A DNA stretch of 32,000 nucleotides from Candidatus Saccharimonadota bacterium (GCF_047555085.1 NZ_CP180230.1:690001-722000), one strand, 5' to 3'; numbered from the stretch's first letter, positions 13,724 to 16,718 are shown. Notes: a model not told the origin generated them from the sequence alone. Numbers and translations are program-made.

Positions 13724-15691
13724 CTAGAAATCCAGGCCTTTAAGTTCCTTTACTTCTGTTTCTTCTTCCAGAATTTCTCTTACATCGTCTCTGAACGTGA
13801 AGTATATTATCTGCCAGCCTTCTTTCTCAAGTTCCTTCAGGAAATCTATCTCCTTCCTTATTCTTTCAGTATCAGAATGTACGAACGCGTTATCAAGTAT
13901 CAGGAATCCAGGCTTTCCGAGTATCTCTTTGGCCAGTTTCAGTCTTACTGCCATGTAAAGCAGATCATAGGTTCCCTGGCTCAGGTCCTGTGGATCAAGT
14001 TCTCTGCCATCCTTTCTCTCAACCTTGAGCTTCCTTGAGGCCTTGTCATAGTTTATATCCGTGTAGTTGCCGTCTGTTGCCTCACGGAACATCTCCACAG
14101 CGTAACTATCGTCCCTGAATATCCTGTTGAACTCGTCCTCCTCCTCGGCCTCCATCTCCTCCAGAATCTTTATCGCATTCTTCGAGGCCTCCACCATCAC
14201 ATTCAGAGAGGATACGAACTCTTCTAGCTGGCGTAAAGCCCTGTCGAGATCCTCTACAGAGTCTACAGAAACAATACTTTCATCCATGAACTTTTCCTCA
14301 AGTACCTCTGAAACACCCGAGTCAAACTCCCTCAAATTTTCACCGTACCGATCTATCTCACTCTCAAGGCCTTCCTTCTCATCCTTCAACCGCTTCAGCT
14401 CATCCCTCTCATGCTGGAGATCTTCCTCACTGAACTCTCTGTCGACCGATCGGAAACTTTCGGAGAAATCATCCAGTACCTGCTTCCATTCACGTGGATC
14501 ATCCCTGTTAGCATCGAAAAGGCCTTTCAACTCCCCGACAGCGCTGTTTCTTTCCCTGTTGATCTTTTTCTCACGCTTATCTAAATCGTTCTCGTAGCTA
14601 TCGATAGCGTCAACTACTTCAGGAATCGTGGAGGCCTCTACACCTCGTGCTCTGGCCTCTTCAATTATATTTTCACGCTCGTTCTCCTGTATCTTGACTT
14701 TTCTGGAGGCTTTCCTGTACTCGTTTAGAGTATAACCAGCCGCAGCCAGGAAAACTACAGCACCTCCAACAAGGACAGGTACAGGATTCAGCAACGCACC
14801 AACAAGCGAAACACCGGATAAAAATCCTGAACCGATGGATGCATACTTCAGAATATTTTTTTCGGAGGCCTCAGCTTCAAAGCCTTCAGCCCCCCTCCGG
14901 ATAGTTTCAAGATCTTCAAGAGCCTTCTTCTCATTCTCAAGATCTTCTTTCCTTCTTTCAGCCTCTTTCAAATCCTCCAGAAGCCTCTGGCCTTTCCTGT
15001 ACTTCCTCTGCTCCCTTGCGTTTTTCAGCTCCTCTATAGCTTCTTTTCTGGCGCTTATCTCATTCTTCAGAGAGTCAATCTTCGAGTACTTCTGGAAAAG
15101 GCCTTCATCCTCAATCCTGTTCATGAAACTCTGAATATCATTCTTCATATCCTCTGCTCTATCCCTTTTATCCCTTAACTTCCCTGTTCCTTTAGTATTC
15201 TCCAGTTTCGCATCACTGGACGTATTCGTGAGATACCCTACTTCAGCGATCTCATCCCTCAAGGCCTCAATCTTTTTCGTCTTGGATCCCAGGACTCTAT
15301 CAGTCACATCGTTGAAGTAATCACCGTTCCCGAAATCATTCTCCCTCTCAGGAAGCCTCAGATCAAAATCACGTACGATAAAGGCATTCTTCACATCCTC
15401 AGGGCTAACATCGCCGAAAATCTTCTCCAGGCCTTCCTGAGACGCATCAAACTCTTCACCGCCGTTCTCGATAGTCAGAAGCCCGTTAGGCTGCTGGGAG
15501 ACCCTGCCGATCCCATCAAAATCCGAGGAATCATCGACAAGCATCTTCGTGATAGACTCGACCAGAAGAGTCTTACCAGACTCGTTACGGCCGTAGAAAG
15601 CATTGAATCCGGAATCCAGATCTATATCAACGTCAGTCAGAGGCCCGTAATGACTGACTTTCACCCTCTTGATCCTTACATTATCGCTCAT
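13724..15691 (-). CDS. Short Rad50/SbcC-like SMC-family ATPase with a central membrane hairpin (YhaN/SbcE-like architecture)
   Basis: 655 aa. Walker A GRNESGKT. Long charged coiled-coil arms. Signature LSQGTYDLL. Walker B/D-loop GFLILDNAFVHSD. Two hydrophobic helices (YASIGSGFLSGVSLVGALL-NPVP-VLVGGAVVFLAAAGYTL) sit at the coiled-coil apex. The whole protein contains no Cys. Confidence 0.8.
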   Translation of the reverse strand: MSDNVRIKRVKVSHYGPLTDVDIDLDSGFNAFYGRNESGKTLLVESITKMLVDDSSDFDGIGRVSQQPNGLLTIENGGEEFDASQEGLEKIFGDVSPEDVKNAFIVRDFDLRLPERENDFGNGDYFNDVTDRVLGSKTKKIEALRDEIAEVGYLTNTSSDAKLENTKGTGKLRDKRDRAEDMKNDIQSFMNRIEDEGLFQKYSKIDSLKNEISARKEAIEELKNAREQRKYRKGQRLLEDLKEAERRKEDLENEKKALEDLETIRRGAEGFEAEASEKNILKYASIGSGFLSGVSLVGALLNPVPVLVGGAVVFLAAAGYTLNEYRKASRKVKIQENERENIIEEARARGVEASTIPEVVDAIDSYENDLDKREKKINRERNSAVGELKGLFDANRDDPREWKQVLDDFSESFRSVDREFSEEDLQHERDELKRLKDEKEGLESEIDRYGENLREFDSGVSEVLEEKFMDESIVSVDSVEDLDRALRQLEEFVSSLNVMVEASKNAIKILEEMEAEEEDEFNRIFRDDSYAVEMFREATDGNYTDINYDKASRKLKVERKDGRELDPQDLSQGTYDLLYMAVRLKLAKEILGKPGFLILDNAFVHSDTERIRKEIDFLKELEKEGWQIIYFTFRDDVREILEEETEVKELKGLDF

Positions 15692-16718
15692 GCCTTGACA
15701 GACCTCTCAGAAACTTTTTCTCAACAAGCTCCGGATTTTCGAAATCCTTCTCCTCAAGCCTTTCACGGAACTCCCTGTAAATCTCCGAATCAACCAGCGA
15801 AGAAGCTGACTCAAGGCCTGAAACATTCACATCTATACTCTCAGGCCCCAGACTTTTCACATCATCTTTAAGCTCTCTAGAAAACTGATCGACAGGCCTC
15901 TCCGTAAATCCATCCAGCTCCAGTATAACTGAGGCCTTCCCAAGATCCTTCTGCTCTAGATCCCCGGTTATTTTATCCTTCAGCTCCTCTTCCTCGCCTG
16001 GCAGAATACTACCGCTCTCATTTATACAGTAAAAAGTATCAAGTTCACGTGTCTCCATGCCTTCATCTGTATCAAGCAGCCAGATCTTCCTCTTACCTGT
16101 TTCAGAACTTGAAATAGAGACAGGCGAACCAGAGTAAGCGAACGTAGTCGCTCCAAACTTCCTCCTCGTAGCTGAAGAATGGATATGCCCTGCCAGAACA
16201 TAGTCAAAACCCGTCCTGACAAGCTCCTGCGGCTTCACAGGCAGATACCGCTCCTCATCACCGAAACCGCCTGAATTACCTGCCAGCGTGCAGTGAATCA
16301 TCAAAATATTTGTTTTGCCCTCTTCAACAGCTTCGGAAAGCGGCTCAACCAGCTCAGAGAAACTTTTCTCAGTATAAGGCAAAGCCACGATATTCACATC
16401 CCCGAAAACCTTTGAAGAATAAGGCCTGTCAGTCAAAACCTCTAGATCATCGCCGAAGTAATCCTCACGCCTGAAAGCAGAGTTATCATGATTCCCAGGA
16501 ATCACAAGCGTCTGAAAACTGTTATCCGAGAAAAGAGGCCTCAGATCAGTCTTCAAACCTTCAATATCAACATTTTTATCGAAAAGATCGCCAGTAATCA
16601 GAAGCAGATCAGCATCCTCATCCCCACACTTCTCAACCACCTGCTCCAAGGCCTCAAACCTCTCAGGATGATCAGGCGAAAGATGCACATCAGCAGTGTG
16701 GACAATTCTCACAGACAA
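15681..16718 (-). CDS. Mre11/SbcD-like calcineurin-type metallophosphoesterase nuclease
   Basis: 345 aa. Phosphoesterase motifs in order: HTADVHL, GDLFD, GNHD, MIHCTL, GHIH. The 3' end overlaps the ATPase start by 11 nt, indicating an operon. Confidence 0.85.
   Translation of the reverse strand: MSVRIVHTADVHLSPDHPERFEALEQVVEKCGDEDADLLLITGDLFDKNVDIEGLKTDLRPLFSDNSFQTLVIPGNHDNSAFRREDYFGDDLEVLTDRPYSSKVFGDVNIVALPYTEKSFSELVEPLSEAVEEGKTNILMIHCTLAGNSGGFGDEERYLPVKPQELVRTGFDYVLAGHIHSSATRRKFGATTFAYSGSPVSISSSETGKRKIWLLDTDEGMETRELDTFYCINESGSILPGEEEELKDKITGDLEQKDLGKASVILELDGFTERPVDQFSRELKDDVKSLGPESIDVNVSGLESASSLVDSEIYREFRERLEEKDFENPELVEKKFLRGLSRHER

What the first reader, a model, noticed from the sequence alone, without database searches (positions are those of the whole stretch)
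13724..16718. Mre11/SbcD-like nuclease plus a short, cysteine-free Rad50-like ATPase whose coiled-coil apex is a membrane hairpin instead of a zinc hook
The two genes overlap by 11 nt, indicating an operon. The nuclease has all five calcineurin-type phosphoesterase motifs. The ATPase has Walker A, signature (LSQG) and Walker B/D-loop motifs at its two ends, separated by charged coiled coils. It is only 655 aa, whereas archaeal Rad50 is typically around 900 aa, and it contains no cysteine at all, so a CxxC zinc hook is impossible. At the midpoint, where the hook would be, there are two adjacent hydrophobic helices joined by NPVP (about 14720-14850). This predicts that the arms are anchored in the membrane. 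The architecture recalls bacterial YhaN/YhaO (SbcE/SbcF) more than canonical archaeal Mre11-Rad50. No herA/nurA partners are adjacent. Neighbours include a possible PC4-like ssDNA-binding protein (13442-13714) and, downstream, a ParB-like-nuclease cassette island. A membrane-tethered DNA-end-processing machine could act on incoming DNA, either in uptake from a host or in defence against invaders, rather than in chromosomal break repair.
Basis: partly seen in the sequence, partly recalled or inferred. Interest (0 to 1): 0.65.

Follow-up and report, generated by a model that had tools for sequence, protein, structure and literature searches.

The report
Membrane-anchored Mre11/Rad50-like pair (YhaO/YhaN)
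This nanohaloarchaeal operon encodes a DNA-end nuclease and a Rad50-like ATPase whose arm tip is a membrane hairpin instead of a zinc hook, but it belongs to the already named, poorly studied YhaN/YhaO (SbcE/SbcF) family, in which that hairpin is the norm.

Summary
A 343/345-aa Mre11/SbcD-type nuclease (15681-16712/16718, minus strand) overlaps by 11 nt a 655-aa SMC/Rad50-like ABC ATPase (13724-15691, minus strand). The ATPase has no cysteine and carries a 39-41-residue charge-free helical hairpin (aa 284-322, turn N-P-V-P) at its midpoint.

This is not a one-off invention. The ATPase passes Pfam's YhaN domain model (AAA_27) and aligns to bacterial YhaN proteins at hhalign probability 100% (E 3.6e-47). 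About 70 complete loci from Nanohaloarchaeota, Halobacteriales, Hadarchaeota, Bathyarchaeia, Asgard archaea, Bacillota, Thermotogota, Actinomycetota and others share three features: the central hydrophobic segment, no CxxC, and the nuclease gene directly upstream.

So the pair is a nanohaloarchaeal member of the YhaO/YhaN (SbcF/SbcE) family. That family is linked to double-strand-break repair and transformation in Bacillus subtilis.

New here:
- The nanohaloarchaeal clade has replaced the acidic residue after the Walker B aspartate (D in the rest of the family) with N/S/T.
- No third gene is conserved next to the pair.
- The surrounding genes are housekeeping, not defence.

The PC4-like and ParB-like neighbours are unsupported. 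Whether the genome also has a canonical Mre11-Rad50 could not be tested.

The parts
15681..16718 (-). Mre11/SbcD-type (YhaO/SbcF-like) metallophosphoesterase nuclease. The likely true start is GTG at 16712 (343 aa).
   Evidence: Pfam Metallophos 1.8e-20. TIGR00619 sbcd 1.3e-15. Best PDB sequence hit is S. aureus SbcD 7dog at 2e-11. The AF2 model has pLDDT 91.6, and all top 50 Foldseek PDB hits are Mre11/SbcD, best 3tho_B at 6.8e-15. All metal-ligand motifs are invariant in 44 homologues.
15687..15785 (-). C-terminal helix-loop-helix of the nuclease (aa 310-342 of the 343-aa form). It is the presumed ATPase coiled-coil-binding element, like the Rad50-binding domain of Mre11.
   Evidence: The AF2 secondary structure shows helices 310-321 and 327-342. 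Foldseek alignments to full-length Mre11 with its Rad50-binding domain (3tho_B, 398 columns) cover the whole model. The function is inferred, not shown.
15681..15691 (-). 11-nt overlap between the nuclease stop codon and the ATPase start codon (ATGAGCGATAA), suggesting translational coupling.
   Evidence: In most related loci the upstream nuclease gene overlaps the ATPase gene by a few nucleotides (4, 8, 11 or 14) or is separated from it by a short gap.
13724..15691 (-). YhaN/SbcE-family SMC/Rad50-like ABC ATPase, 655 aa, with no cysteine.
   Evidence: Pfam AAA_27 (YhaN AAA domain) scores 26.9 bits against a cut-off of 22; AAA_23 3.4e-9. hhalign against a bacterial YhaN-like alignment gives probability 100%, E 3.6e-47. 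The AF2 model has pLDDT 81.5, and the top PDB fold hit is Rad50 7zr1 at 4e-9.
15569..15592 (-). Walker A / P-loop, G-R-N-E-S-G-K-T (aa 34-41).
   Evidence: G34, N36, E37, G39 and K40 are each present in 70 of the 72 aligned family sequences, and the other 2 have gaps there.
14726..14842 (-). Apical hydrophobic helical hairpin: helix 1 aa 284-301, turn N302-P303-V304-P305, helix 2 aa 306-322. It is the predicted membrane anchor that takes the place of the zinc hook.
   Evidence: Kyte-Doolittle maximum 2.05, and a 41-aa charge-free run against a shuffle maximum of 28. In 40 homologues these columns carry no charged residue except 3 cells in the turn. They are flanked by K/R282 (35/40) and by Y325 (32/40) and R326 (25/40). 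P303 is present in 30/40. AF2 models helices 278-301 and 305-348 with a break at 302-304. The equivalent segment is present in about 70 loci and in 144 of 146 representatives.
13970..13984 (-). ABC signature motif L-S-Q-G-T (aa 570-574).
   Evidence: S571 is present in 71 of 72 sequences and G573 in 69 of 72.
13871..13906 (-). Walker B and D-loop, F-L-I-L-D600-N601-A-F-V-H-S-D607. The catalytic carboxylate position is Asn.
   Evidence: D600 and D607 are invariant. Position 601 is D in 59 and E in 3 of 72 family members. In all 32 sequences of the nanohaloarchaeal clade it is N (28), S (2) or T (2).

Best explanation
The two genes encode a nanohaloarchaeal YhaO/YhaN (SbcF/SbcE) complex. This is a paralogue of Mre11-Rad50/SbcCD in which the Rad50-like ATPase is held at the cytoplasmic face of the cell membrane.

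Shown here:
- The nuclease has an intact Mre11/SbcD fold and active site, plus a C-terminal helix-loop-helix.
- The ATPase has a split ABC head (aa 1-170 and 526-655) joined by long helices. Their apex is a 39-residue apolar helix-turn-helix flanked on both sides by basic residues.
- The gene pair and this architecture are conserved across Archaea and Bacteria.

Inferred:
- Both arms return to the cytoplasm, so the hairpin sits in the membrane, either spanning it twice or as a monotopic wedge.
- Two ATPase protomers are presumably held together at the apex by helix-helix packing in the membrane rather than by a Zn2+-bridged CxxC hook.
- Their heads engage on ATP binding and carry a nuclease dimer that cuts or trims DNA ends lying close to the envelope.
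- By analogy with B. subtilis SbcE, the role is double-strand-break or DNA-end processing, possibly including DNA that enters at the envelope.
- In the nanohaloarchaeal clade the acidic residue after the Walker B aspartate is replaced by Asn. ATP binding and head engagement are therefore probably retained, while hydrolysis is slow or relies on another residue.
For: Family membership:
- Pfam AAA_27 scores above its gathering score.
- hhalign gives probability 100%, E 3.6e-47, against bacterial YhaN-like proteins, including the blocks TxGxY, LSxGTxDxLY, DxAFxxxDxxR and WQhhYFT.
- Some JGI records name close homologues 'uncharacterized protein YhaN'.

Conserved architecture and gene pairing:
- Almost all of the roughly 70 complete loci have a central hydrophobic segment (typically at relative position about 0.46) and the nuclease gene immediately upstream; none has a CxxC. 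L082 (Aquibacillus) shows the classical 986-aa YhaN with a 415-aa YhaO.
- 144 of 146 full-length representatives have the central hydrophobic segment.

Folds:
-.

Membrane reading:
- Charge-free columns, basic flanks, an aromatic residue at the boundary and a conserved N-P turn.
- The central domain of B. subtilis SbcE is hydrophobic, has a conserved proline and is insoluble when expressed (PMC2811018).

Function:
- B. subtilis sbcE mutants are sensitive to double-strand breaks and mildly defective in transformation. SbcE and SbcF form polar foci in competent cells, and SbcE interacts with YhaO in yeast two-hybrid assays (PMC2811018).
Against: - No membrane-topology predictor, fractionation or localisation data were available. 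Helix 1 is Gly/Ser-rich and only about 18 residues long, so a monotopic or re-entrant insertion is as possible as a true double span.
- The two arms are unequal: about 105 aa on the N side against about 200 aa on the C side. The simple antiparallel-rod picture is therefore incomplete.
- The family lacks the H-loop histidine, and its Q-loop glutamine position is Asp or Asn. The nanohaloarchaeal clade also lacks the Walker B carboxylate. The ATPase cycle may therefore differ substantially from Rad50's.
- The function is extrapolated from a single bacterial study.
- No interaction between the two window proteins has been shown.
Confidence: 0.75

Rival explanations
1. It is simply the lineage's (divergent) canonical Mre11-Rad50, doing ordinary chromosomal break repair. 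On this reading the hydrophobic hairpin is a soluble apex dimerisation module, a four-helix bundle between two protomers, rather than a membrane anchor.
For: Rad50 and Mre11 are the best structural matches. NCBIfam Rad50 and Mre11 models give weak hits. The chromosomal context is housekeeping and partly syntenic with another nanohaloarchaeon. No other MR-type pair is seen in the window.
Against: - Scores are far below the Rad50 and Mre11 equivalog cut-offs: 50.5 bits against 700, and 42.6 against 550.
- There is no cysteine, so no zinc hook.
- The protein groups with YhaN, not Rad50.
- A 39-residue segment with no charged residue on any face, conserved across 40 homologues of an otherwise 39%-charged halophilic protein, is not what a soluble bundle looks like.
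- Haloarchaea, which have canonical Mre11-Rad50 (PMC2700283), carry this pair as an extra, sometimes in two copies.
Confidence: 0.1
2. It is a two-gene anti-virus or anti-plasmid defence module of the 'ABC/SMC-like ATPase plus nuclease' kind (Lamassu, Gabija, PARIS or Septu-like) that senses and cuts invader DNA at the envelope.
For: There are weak PADLOC hits to mad8 (3.7e-12), mad3, LmuB (1.8e-9), PtuA and GajA. Lamassu LmuB and JetC appear among the fold matches. One distant locus (L003) has a GmrSD/SLFN-like gene 2.5 kb away. The distribution in Halobacteriales is patchy, with paralogues.
Against: - The PADLOC hits are mostly generic P-loop or SMC-head similarity. Many of them cover only the N-terminal ~50 residues.
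- No defence gene family is a conserved neighbour in 82 loci.
- The window is housekeeping: riboflavin genes, subtilase, EF-2, oapABC.
- No relative was found in the viral contig collection.
- The only experimental data for the family point to repair and transformation (PMC2811018).
Confidence: 0.1
3. One reading: the membrane-tethered complex acts mainly on incoming DNA, for example DNA taken up from the haloarchaeal host by this ectosymbiont, rather than on chromosomal breaks.
For: B. subtilis SbcE and SbcF accumulate at the pole of competent cells, and the sbcE mutant has a mild transformation defect (PMC2811018). Membrane anchoring would place the nuclease at the envelope. The organism is a nanohaloarchaeon.
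Against: - No uptake machinery is linked to the pair in any locus.
- The same family occurs in free-living archaea and bacteria that are not known to be competent.
- The B. subtilis phenotype is chiefly sensitivity to double-strand breaks.
- Nothing here bears directly on DNA import.
Confidence: 0.15

Closest known systems
Bacillus subtilis SbcE/SbcF (YhaN/YhaO); Pfam PF13514 AAA_27 (YhaN AAA domain)
   Same: - Same gene order, with the nuclease upstream and coupled to the ATPase.
- Same N-terminal P-loop signature (G-x-N-E-[SA]-G-K-[ST]).
- Same C-terminal blocks (LSxGTxDxLY, D-x-A/P-F-x-x-x-D-x-x-R, Q-h-h-h-F-T).
- Same central hydrophobic domain with a conserved proline, and no CxxC (PMC2811018).
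   Different: - Much shorter: 655 aa against about 960-1000 aa in Bacillales. It belongs to a ~650-aa length class that was found here only in archaeal loci.
- The nuclease is 343 aa against about 410 aa.
- No yhaM-type exonuclease gene is linked.
- The Walker B +1 residue is Asn instead of Asp.
- The host is a DPANN archaeon.
Canonical Mre11-Rad50 (archaea/eukaryotes) and SbcCD (bacteria)
   Same: - An ABC head split by antiparallel helical arms.
- An Mre11-fold Mn2+ phosphoesterase with a capping domain and a C-terminal helix-loop-helix.
- A nuclease-then-ATPase operon.
- These are the best structural matches.
   Different: - No zinc hook; a membrane-type hairpin sits at the apex.
- Shorter and unequal arms.
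- The Q-loop Gln position is Asp and there is no H-loop His.
- Walker B is D-N rather than D-E.
- Scores are far below the NCBIfam Rad50 and Mre11 cut-offs.
SMC-like ATPases of defence systems (Lamassu LmuB, Wadjet JetC, Septu PtuA, Gabija GajA)
   Same: An ABC/SMC-type head with a coiled-coil insertion, partnered with a nuclease.
   Different: These have different nuclease partners (Cap4/LmuA, Toprim/JetD, HNH, OLD-type Toprim) and no membrane hairpin. The similarity here is limited to generic head regions, and the genomic context is not a defence island.

Membership tests
YhaN/SbcE family (PF13514 AAA_27) | N-terminal YhaN-type AAA domain matching the Pfam model above its gathering score | tested here: met
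   AAA_27 scores 26.9 bits against a cut-off of 22, over aa 6-51. The precomputed Pfam assignment for the same protein and many homologues also includes PF13514.
YhaN/SbcE family (PF13514 AAA_27) | C-terminal head half homologous to bacterial YhaN (signature, Walker B/D-loop and terminal blocks) | tested here: met
   hhalign of the 40-sequence nanohaloarchaeal alignment against 13 bacterial YhaN-like proteins gives probability 100%, E 3.6e-47, over 252 columns (aa 376-644).
YhaN/SbcE family (PF13514 AAA_27) | A 'unique central domain': hydrophobic, with a conserved proline, lying between the heptad regions, and no CxxC (Krishnamurthy et al. 2009) | tested here: met
   The apolar hairpin spans aa 284-322 with an N-P turn; P303 is present in 30/40. 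The protein has 0 Cys. The same feature is present in L082 (Aquibacillus) and in Lentibacillus and Peribacillus YhaN proteins.
YhaN/SbcE family (PF13514 AAA_27) | Adjacent upstream SbcD-like nuclease gene (yhaO/sbcF) | tested here: met
   The overlap with the Mre11/SbcD-type gene is 11 nt. The pairing is conserved in about 65 loci.
YhaN/SbcE family (PF13514 AAA_27) | Physical complex with the nuclease; role in double-strand-break repair and transformation | not testable with these tools
   Known only from B. subtilis genetics, localisation and yeast two-hybrid data (PMC2811018).
YhaN/SbcE family (PF13514 AAA_27) | Acidic residue (D, rarely E) directly after the Walker B aspartate | tested here: not met
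   The window protein has N601. The family has D in 59 and E in 3 of 72 sequences, and D 112 / E 7 among the 146 full-length representatives (121 matched the motif pattern used). All 32 nanohaloarchaeal-clade sequences have N, S or T. This is a clade-specific deviation, not a reason to exclude homology.
Canonical Rad50/SbcC | CxxC zinc hook at the coiled-coil apex | tested here: not met
   There are 0 cysteines in the 655 aa. No CxxC occurs in any of the 53 homologues or in the ~70 ATPases from the genomic loci.
Canonical Rad50/SbcC | Score above the NCBIfam Rad50 equivalog cut-offs | tested here: not met
   PRK03918 50.5 bits against 700; Rad50_Halo 34.5 against 1000; Rad50_Sulf 33.7 against 1000.
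Canonical Rad50/SbcC | ABC head motifs: Walker A, Q-loop Gln, signature, Walker B D-E, D-loop, H-loop His | tested here: inconclusive
   Walker A, the signature, the Walker B Asp and the D-loop Asp are present. The Q-loop position is D108, the Walker B +1 residue is N601, and the H-loop position is F633.
Mre11/SbcD nuclease family | Calcineurin-type phosphoesterase motifs I-V with all metal ligands, plus the Mre11 fold with its capping domain | tested here: met
   D8, H10, D42, N74, H75, H140, H176 and H178 are invariant. The AF2 model has pLDDT 91.6, and the top 50 PDB fold matches are all Mre11/SbcD. However, the scores are below the NCBIfam Mre11/SbcD cut-offs: TIGR00619 57.9 against 77.65, and Mre11_Halo 42.6 against 550. 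It is therefore a distinct subfamily (YhaO-like).
Known anti-phage defence systems (PADLOC models) | Full-length match to a defence-system ATPase or nuclease model, with the cognate partner genes nearby | tested here: not met
   There are only partial, generic head matches (mad8 3.7e-12, LmuB 1.8e-9, PtuA and GajA over the N-terminal ~50 aa). No cognate partners or conserved defence neighbours were found.

The most novel reading that the evidence does not exclude
In Nanohaloarchaeota the membrane-anchored YhaN/YhaO complex may be the lineage's only Mre11-Rad50-type machine. It may also have become an ATP-binding but essentially non-hydrolysing clamp, given the Walker B D-to-N/S/T change fixed across the clade. 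Such a complex would hold and trim DNA ends at the cell envelope, for instance DNA exchanged with the haloarchaeal host. More generally, the YhaN family would then be an unrecognised, pan-prokaryotic 'membrane-hooked Rad50' in which lipid-embedded helix packing replaces the zinc hook.
Probability: 0.12. Interest if true: 0.7.

Novelty: new member of a known kind. Interest (0 to 1): 0.35.

Why it matters
The YhaN/YhaO (SbcE/SbcF) family is named but barely studied. I found one experimental paper, and a 2019 survey still calls its role 'poorly characterized'.

This analysis shows that the family is large: 626 clusters at 50% identity score E <= 1e-30. It spans many archaeal and bacterial phyla. 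Its defining trait is a membrane-type hairpin where Rad50 has its zinc hook.

That makes a simple, testable idea: a Mre11-Rad50-like machine tethered to the membrane. The compact 655-aa archaeal form could be a convenient subject for structural work.

For nanohaloarchaea, which have reduced genomes and live attached to haloarchaeal hosts, two findings matter for how these cells handle DNA ends: the pair is retained, and its catalytic carboxylate has been lost across the clade. For genome annotation, the practical point is that such pairs should be called YhaN/YhaO-like rather than Rad50/Mre11 or SbcCD.

Tried and rejected
1. PC4-like reading of the 90-aa ORF (13442-13714). There was no Pfam, NCBIfam or PADLOC hit. 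The only PDB hits were at E 0.12-0.13, to an unrelated transducer protein. No homologue lies beside the pair in 82 related loci. Rejected as unsupported.

2. ParB-like nuclease reading of the 148-aa ORF (16956-17402). It contains a 'DGHHR' string, but there was no family hit at E <= 0.1 and no meaningful PDB hit. It is not conserved next to the pair. Left unsupported.

3. A conserved third partner (HerA, NurA, YhaM or other). All-against-all clustering of 461 neighbouring ORFs from 82 loci found only lineage-restricted synteny, with at most 7 loci per cluster.

4. Link to viruses or mobile elements. The scan of viral contigs returned no relative.

5. Recent transfer from a haloarchaeal host. 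A rough neighbour-joining tree does not nest the nanohaloarchaeal clade inside the Halobacteriales clades. This is only a distance tree, so the point is weak.

6. Literature on a transmembrane YhaN, on archaeal YhaN, or on the DNA-repair gene content of nanohaloarchaea. Seven full-text searches found nothing beyond PMC2811018 and PMC6452273. The 2020 classification of ABC ATPases (Krishnan et al., NAR 48:10045) is not held, so I could not check whether it describes the hairpin.

7. Searching the rest of the genome for canonical rad50/mre11/herA/nurA.

8. Model coordinates are not exposed, so arm geometry and helix packing could not be measured.

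
Full report
**1. What is in the sequence**

Two minus-strand ORFs occupy 13724-16718.
- The upstream ORF is listed from TTG 16718 (345 aa). The called product in the protein collection is 343 aa, and the homologue consensus begins MKIxHTADxHL. GTG 16712 is therefore the likely start.
- Its stop codon (TAA, 15683-15681) lies inside the first codons of the downstream ORF, whose ATG is at 15691. The overlap is 11 nt, ATGAGCGATAA.
- The downstream protein is 655 aa and has no cysteine. It is 39% charged (154 D+E, 104 K+R).
- Its single strongly hydrophobic region is aa 283-323, YASIGSGFLSGVSLVGALL-NPVP-VLVGGAVVFLAAAGYTLN.
- A 41-residue run without D/E/K/R is far beyond chance for this composition. 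In 2000 shuffles the mean longest run was 11.8 and the maximum 28.

The factual content of the finding is therefore confirmed.

**2. The nuclease**

- Pfam Metallophos matches at 1.8e-20. The best NCBIfam hits are SbcD and Mre11 models, all below their cut-offs.
- The best PDB sequence match is S. aureus SbcD (7dog, 2e-11).
- In an alignment of 44 homologues the metal ligands and motif residues are invariant: D8, H10, G41-D42, G73-N74-H75-D76, H140, G175-H176-x-H178.
- The AlphaFold2 model is confident (pLDDT 91.6, pTM 0.85). Its 50 best PDB fold matches are all Mre11/SbcD.
- After the catalytic and capping domains the model ends in two helices (310-321, 327-342). This is the arrangement Mre11 uses to grip the base of the Rad50 coiled coil. 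That role is inferred here.

**3. The ATPase**

- Pfam gives AAA_23, AAA_15, SMC_N and, above its gathering score, AAA_27, the 'YhaN AAA domain' (26.9 bits against 22).
- NCBIfam Rad50 models hit only weakly (50.5 bits against a cut-off of 700).
- A profile of 40 homologues finds Rad50 head structures in the PDB at 3e-12.
- The AlphaFold2 model has pLDDT 81.5. It shows:
  - an N-terminal head lobe (to about aa 170);
  - a long helix (172-269);
  - helix 278-301, a break at 302-304, then helix 305-348;
  - further helices up to 524;
  - the C-terminal head lobe.
- Its best PDB fold match is Rad50 of the Chaetomium MRN complex (4e-9), followed by JetC, Lamassu LmuB and cohesin/condensin SMCs.
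- The two arms are unequal, about 105 against about 200 residues. The C-side therefore carries extra helical material between the membrane segment and the head.

**4. It is a YhaN/YhaO (SbcE/SbcF) pair**

- The protein search returned 40 relatives of 646-776 aa. Two carry names: Candidatus Nanohalobium (NCBI) and 'uncharacterized protein YhaN' (JGI). Beyond these came bacterial YhaN proteins of Lentibacillus and Peribacillus.
- Profile-profile comparison of the archaeal set with 13 bacterial YhaN-like proteins gives probability 100% and E 3.6e-47 over aa 376-644. The shared blocks are TDGNYTDI / TxGRY, LSQGTYDLLY / LSxGTxDQLY, LDNAFVHSDxxR / xDDxFVxxDxxR and WQIIYFT / RQILLFT.
- Every one of the 53 proteins lacks CxxC, and nearly all have a hydrophobic stretch at mid-length.
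- A scan of one genome per prokaryotic species found 128 relatives. The best 79 loci come from the following groups:
  - Nanohaloarchaeota: SG9 (CP012986), Nanohalobium sp. and others;
  - Halobacteriales: Halorussus, Natronomonas, Halosimplex, Halorubrum trueperi, Halovivax, Salinarchaeum, Haloparvum;
  - Hadarchaeota and Bathyarchaeia;
  - Asgard archaea: Thor-, Loki- and Helarchaeota;
  - Bacteria: Bacillota, Fervidobacterium, Actinomycetota, Aerophobetes, Desulfobacterales, Gemmatimonadota and Binatia.
- In my ORF analysis of these loci, almost every complete ATPase has the hydrophobic segment, typically at relative position about 0.46, and none has a CxxC. Nearly all have a homologous nuclease gene immediately upstream, most often overlapping by 4 nt.
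- L082 (Aquibacillus albus) shows the classical Bacillales form: a 986-aa YhaN and a 415-aa YhaO.
- An exhaustive HMM search of 1.84 billion representative proteins finds 626 clusters at E <= 1e-30. The best 150 fall into two length classes, 640-680 aa (50) and 760-800 aa (86). Of 146 full-length proteins, 144 have the central hydrophobic segment.

The one experimental paper on the family (Krishnamurthy et al. 2009, PMC2811018) describes SbcE as follows.
[quoted passage not shown] That domain is conserved, rich in hydrophobic residues, has a highly conserved proline, lacks CxxC, and is insoluble when expressed.
- Mutants are sensitive to double-strand breaks and mildly defective in transformation.
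- SbcE and SbcF form polar foci in competent cells.
- SbcE interacts with YhaO in yeast two-hybrid assays.

That paper does not call the domain transmembrane. I found no later open-access paper that does, and none that discusses archaeal members. A 2019 survey says the role of SbcEF 'remains poorly characterized' (PMC6452273).

**5. Why the hairpin is best read as a membrane anchor**

Across 40 homologues (27-75% identical to the window protein):
- Columns 284-322 contain no charged residue at all, apart from three cells in the four-residue turn.
- The segment is bracketed by K/R282 (35/40) on one side and by Y325 (32/40), R326 and K327 on the other.
- The turn is N302 (24/40) and P303 (30/40).
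- Across the wider family both 10-residue flanks carry a net positive charge, although the proteins are acidic overall.

Two apolar helices of about 18 residues, a very short uncharged turn and basic flanks on both sides fit a hairpin with both ends in the cytoplasm. An antiparallel coiled coil requires exactly that. Helix 1 is Gly/Ser-rich and both helices are short, so a monotopic (re-entrant) insertion is as possible as a double span. I could not run a topology predictor. A soluble four-helix dimerisation bundle is unlikely, because no face of the hairpin is polar in a halophile's otherwise very acidic protein.

**6. What differs in the nanohaloarchaeal clade**

- Family-wide, the Walker B motif is hhhhD-D: D in 59 and E in 3 of 72 sequences, and D 112 / E 7 among the 146 full-length representatives.
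- All 32 sequences of the nanohaloarchaeal clade (47-100% identical to the window protein) have N (28), S (2) or T (2) at that position. Walker A, the signature motif, the Walker B Asp and the D-loop Asp stay invariant.
- Two members of the sister group (L008, L011) also lack the acidic residue.
- In ABC ATPases this carboxylate is the catalytic base (established knowledge; E-to-Q mutants bind ATP and dimerise but hydrolyse poorly). The clade probably has an attenuated or altered ATPase cycle. This is an inference.
- The whole family also lacks the H-loop histidine and has Asp or Asn where Rad50 has the Q-loop glutamine.

**7. Context**

- No gene family is conserved beside the pair across the 82 loci.
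- The window's 90-aa and 148-aa neighbours have no homologue in any related locus. They also have no family or structural match supporting 'PC4-like' or 'ParB-like'.
- The only synteny with the window is with L006. That locus shares the riboflavin synthase and CTP-dependent riboflavin kinase genes (window 9484-10568) downstream of the ATPase.
- The window otherwise encodes housekeeping and surface proteins: a subtilase, LamG-domain proteins, a class-I LysRS-like protein, an amino-acid kinase, OapA/B/C and EF-2.
- It contains no recognisable defence genes, and no relative occurs in the viral contig collection.
- A rough neighbour-joining tree places the nanohaloarchaeal clade next to a small group of ~650-aa proteins from uncultured archaea. 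It is not nested inside either of the two Halobacteriales clades (~650 and ~766 aa). Some haloarchaeal genera carry both forms.

**8. Verdict**

The pair is nevertheless an ordinary member of a named family in which this architecture is universal. Its novelty is therefore limited to three things:
- membership of a DPANN lineage;
- the compact ~650-aa form;
- the clade-wide loss of the Walker B carboxylate.

The function (end processing at the membrane, perhaps of incoming DNA) remains an extrapolation from B. subtilis. Whether the organism also has a canonical Mre11-Rad50 is the main open point and could not be tested with the tools at hand.

Noticed in passing
window 13889-13891 (codon N601 of the ATPase); alignment A1; loci L001-L011: The acidic residue after the Walker B aspartate is D or E in almost all of the YhaN family. 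In all 32 nanohaloarchaeal-clade sequences it is N, S or T, while the other ATP-binding motifs stay invariant. This suggests an ATP-binding but hydrolysis-attenuated variant.
   Followed up: partly
window 22450-23933 (minus strand): Three adjacent genes match OapC (PF09845, 2.5e-21), OapB (PF09846, 3.2e-17) and a small GTPase (MMR_HSR1). This is the haloarchaeal 'origin-associated protein' cluster, so a replication origin may lie nearby. No Orc1/Cdc6 gene turned up among the window ORFs scanned against Pfam.
   Followed up: no
window 555-2114: A 473-aa tyrosine-recombinase (Phage_integrase) gene with a zinc-ribbon lies next to tRNA-Pro(TGG) at 2040-2114. This may be the edge of an integrated element.
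   Followed up: no
window 3895-5952 and 30056-31983: Five ORFs carry Laminin_G_3 (concanavalin-like lectin) domains, in two clusters. These are probably secreted or surface proteins, perhaps relevant to host attachment in a nanohaloarchaeon.
   Followed up: no
window 18226-19215 (+): A 329-aa protein gives a weak but above-threshold match to class-I lysyl-tRNA synthetase (PF01921, 36.9 bits against 27) over the catalytic core only. It is much shorter than a full LysRS, so it may be a truncated paralogue.
   Followed up: no
window 16956-17402 (+): A 148-aa acidic protein ends in the string VGVDGHHRVMAFKAIG, which is reminiscent of ParB/Srx-type motifs. It has no Pfam, NCBIfam, PADLOC or PDB match and no homologue in related loci.
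   Followed up: partly
loci L016/L017 (Natronomonas) and L025/L052 (Salinarchaeum); Halosimplex loci L019-L079: Halobacteriales carry two paralogous YhaN-like clades (~650 aa and ~766 aa), sometimes both within one genus. In several Halosimplex loci the longest ORF extends far upstream over the nuclease gene, which is probably a start-codon artefact of my ORF caller.
   Followed up: partly
window 10561-13275 (minus strand): A 904-aa subtilase (Peptidase_S8, 1.1e-57) has a DUF5667 domain and a long, extremely acidic, low-complexity C-terminal half ending in a short hydrophobic tail. It sits between the ATPase gene and the riboflavin genes. In the related locus L006 those riboflavin genes lie closer to the ATPase gene.
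   Followed up: no
loci L001, L002, L004, L007: In several other nanohaloarchaeal loci a VRR_NUC nuclease gene, and in three of them a Band_7 (stomatin-like) gene, lie within a few kb of the pair. Neither has a homologue in this window.
   Followed up: partly
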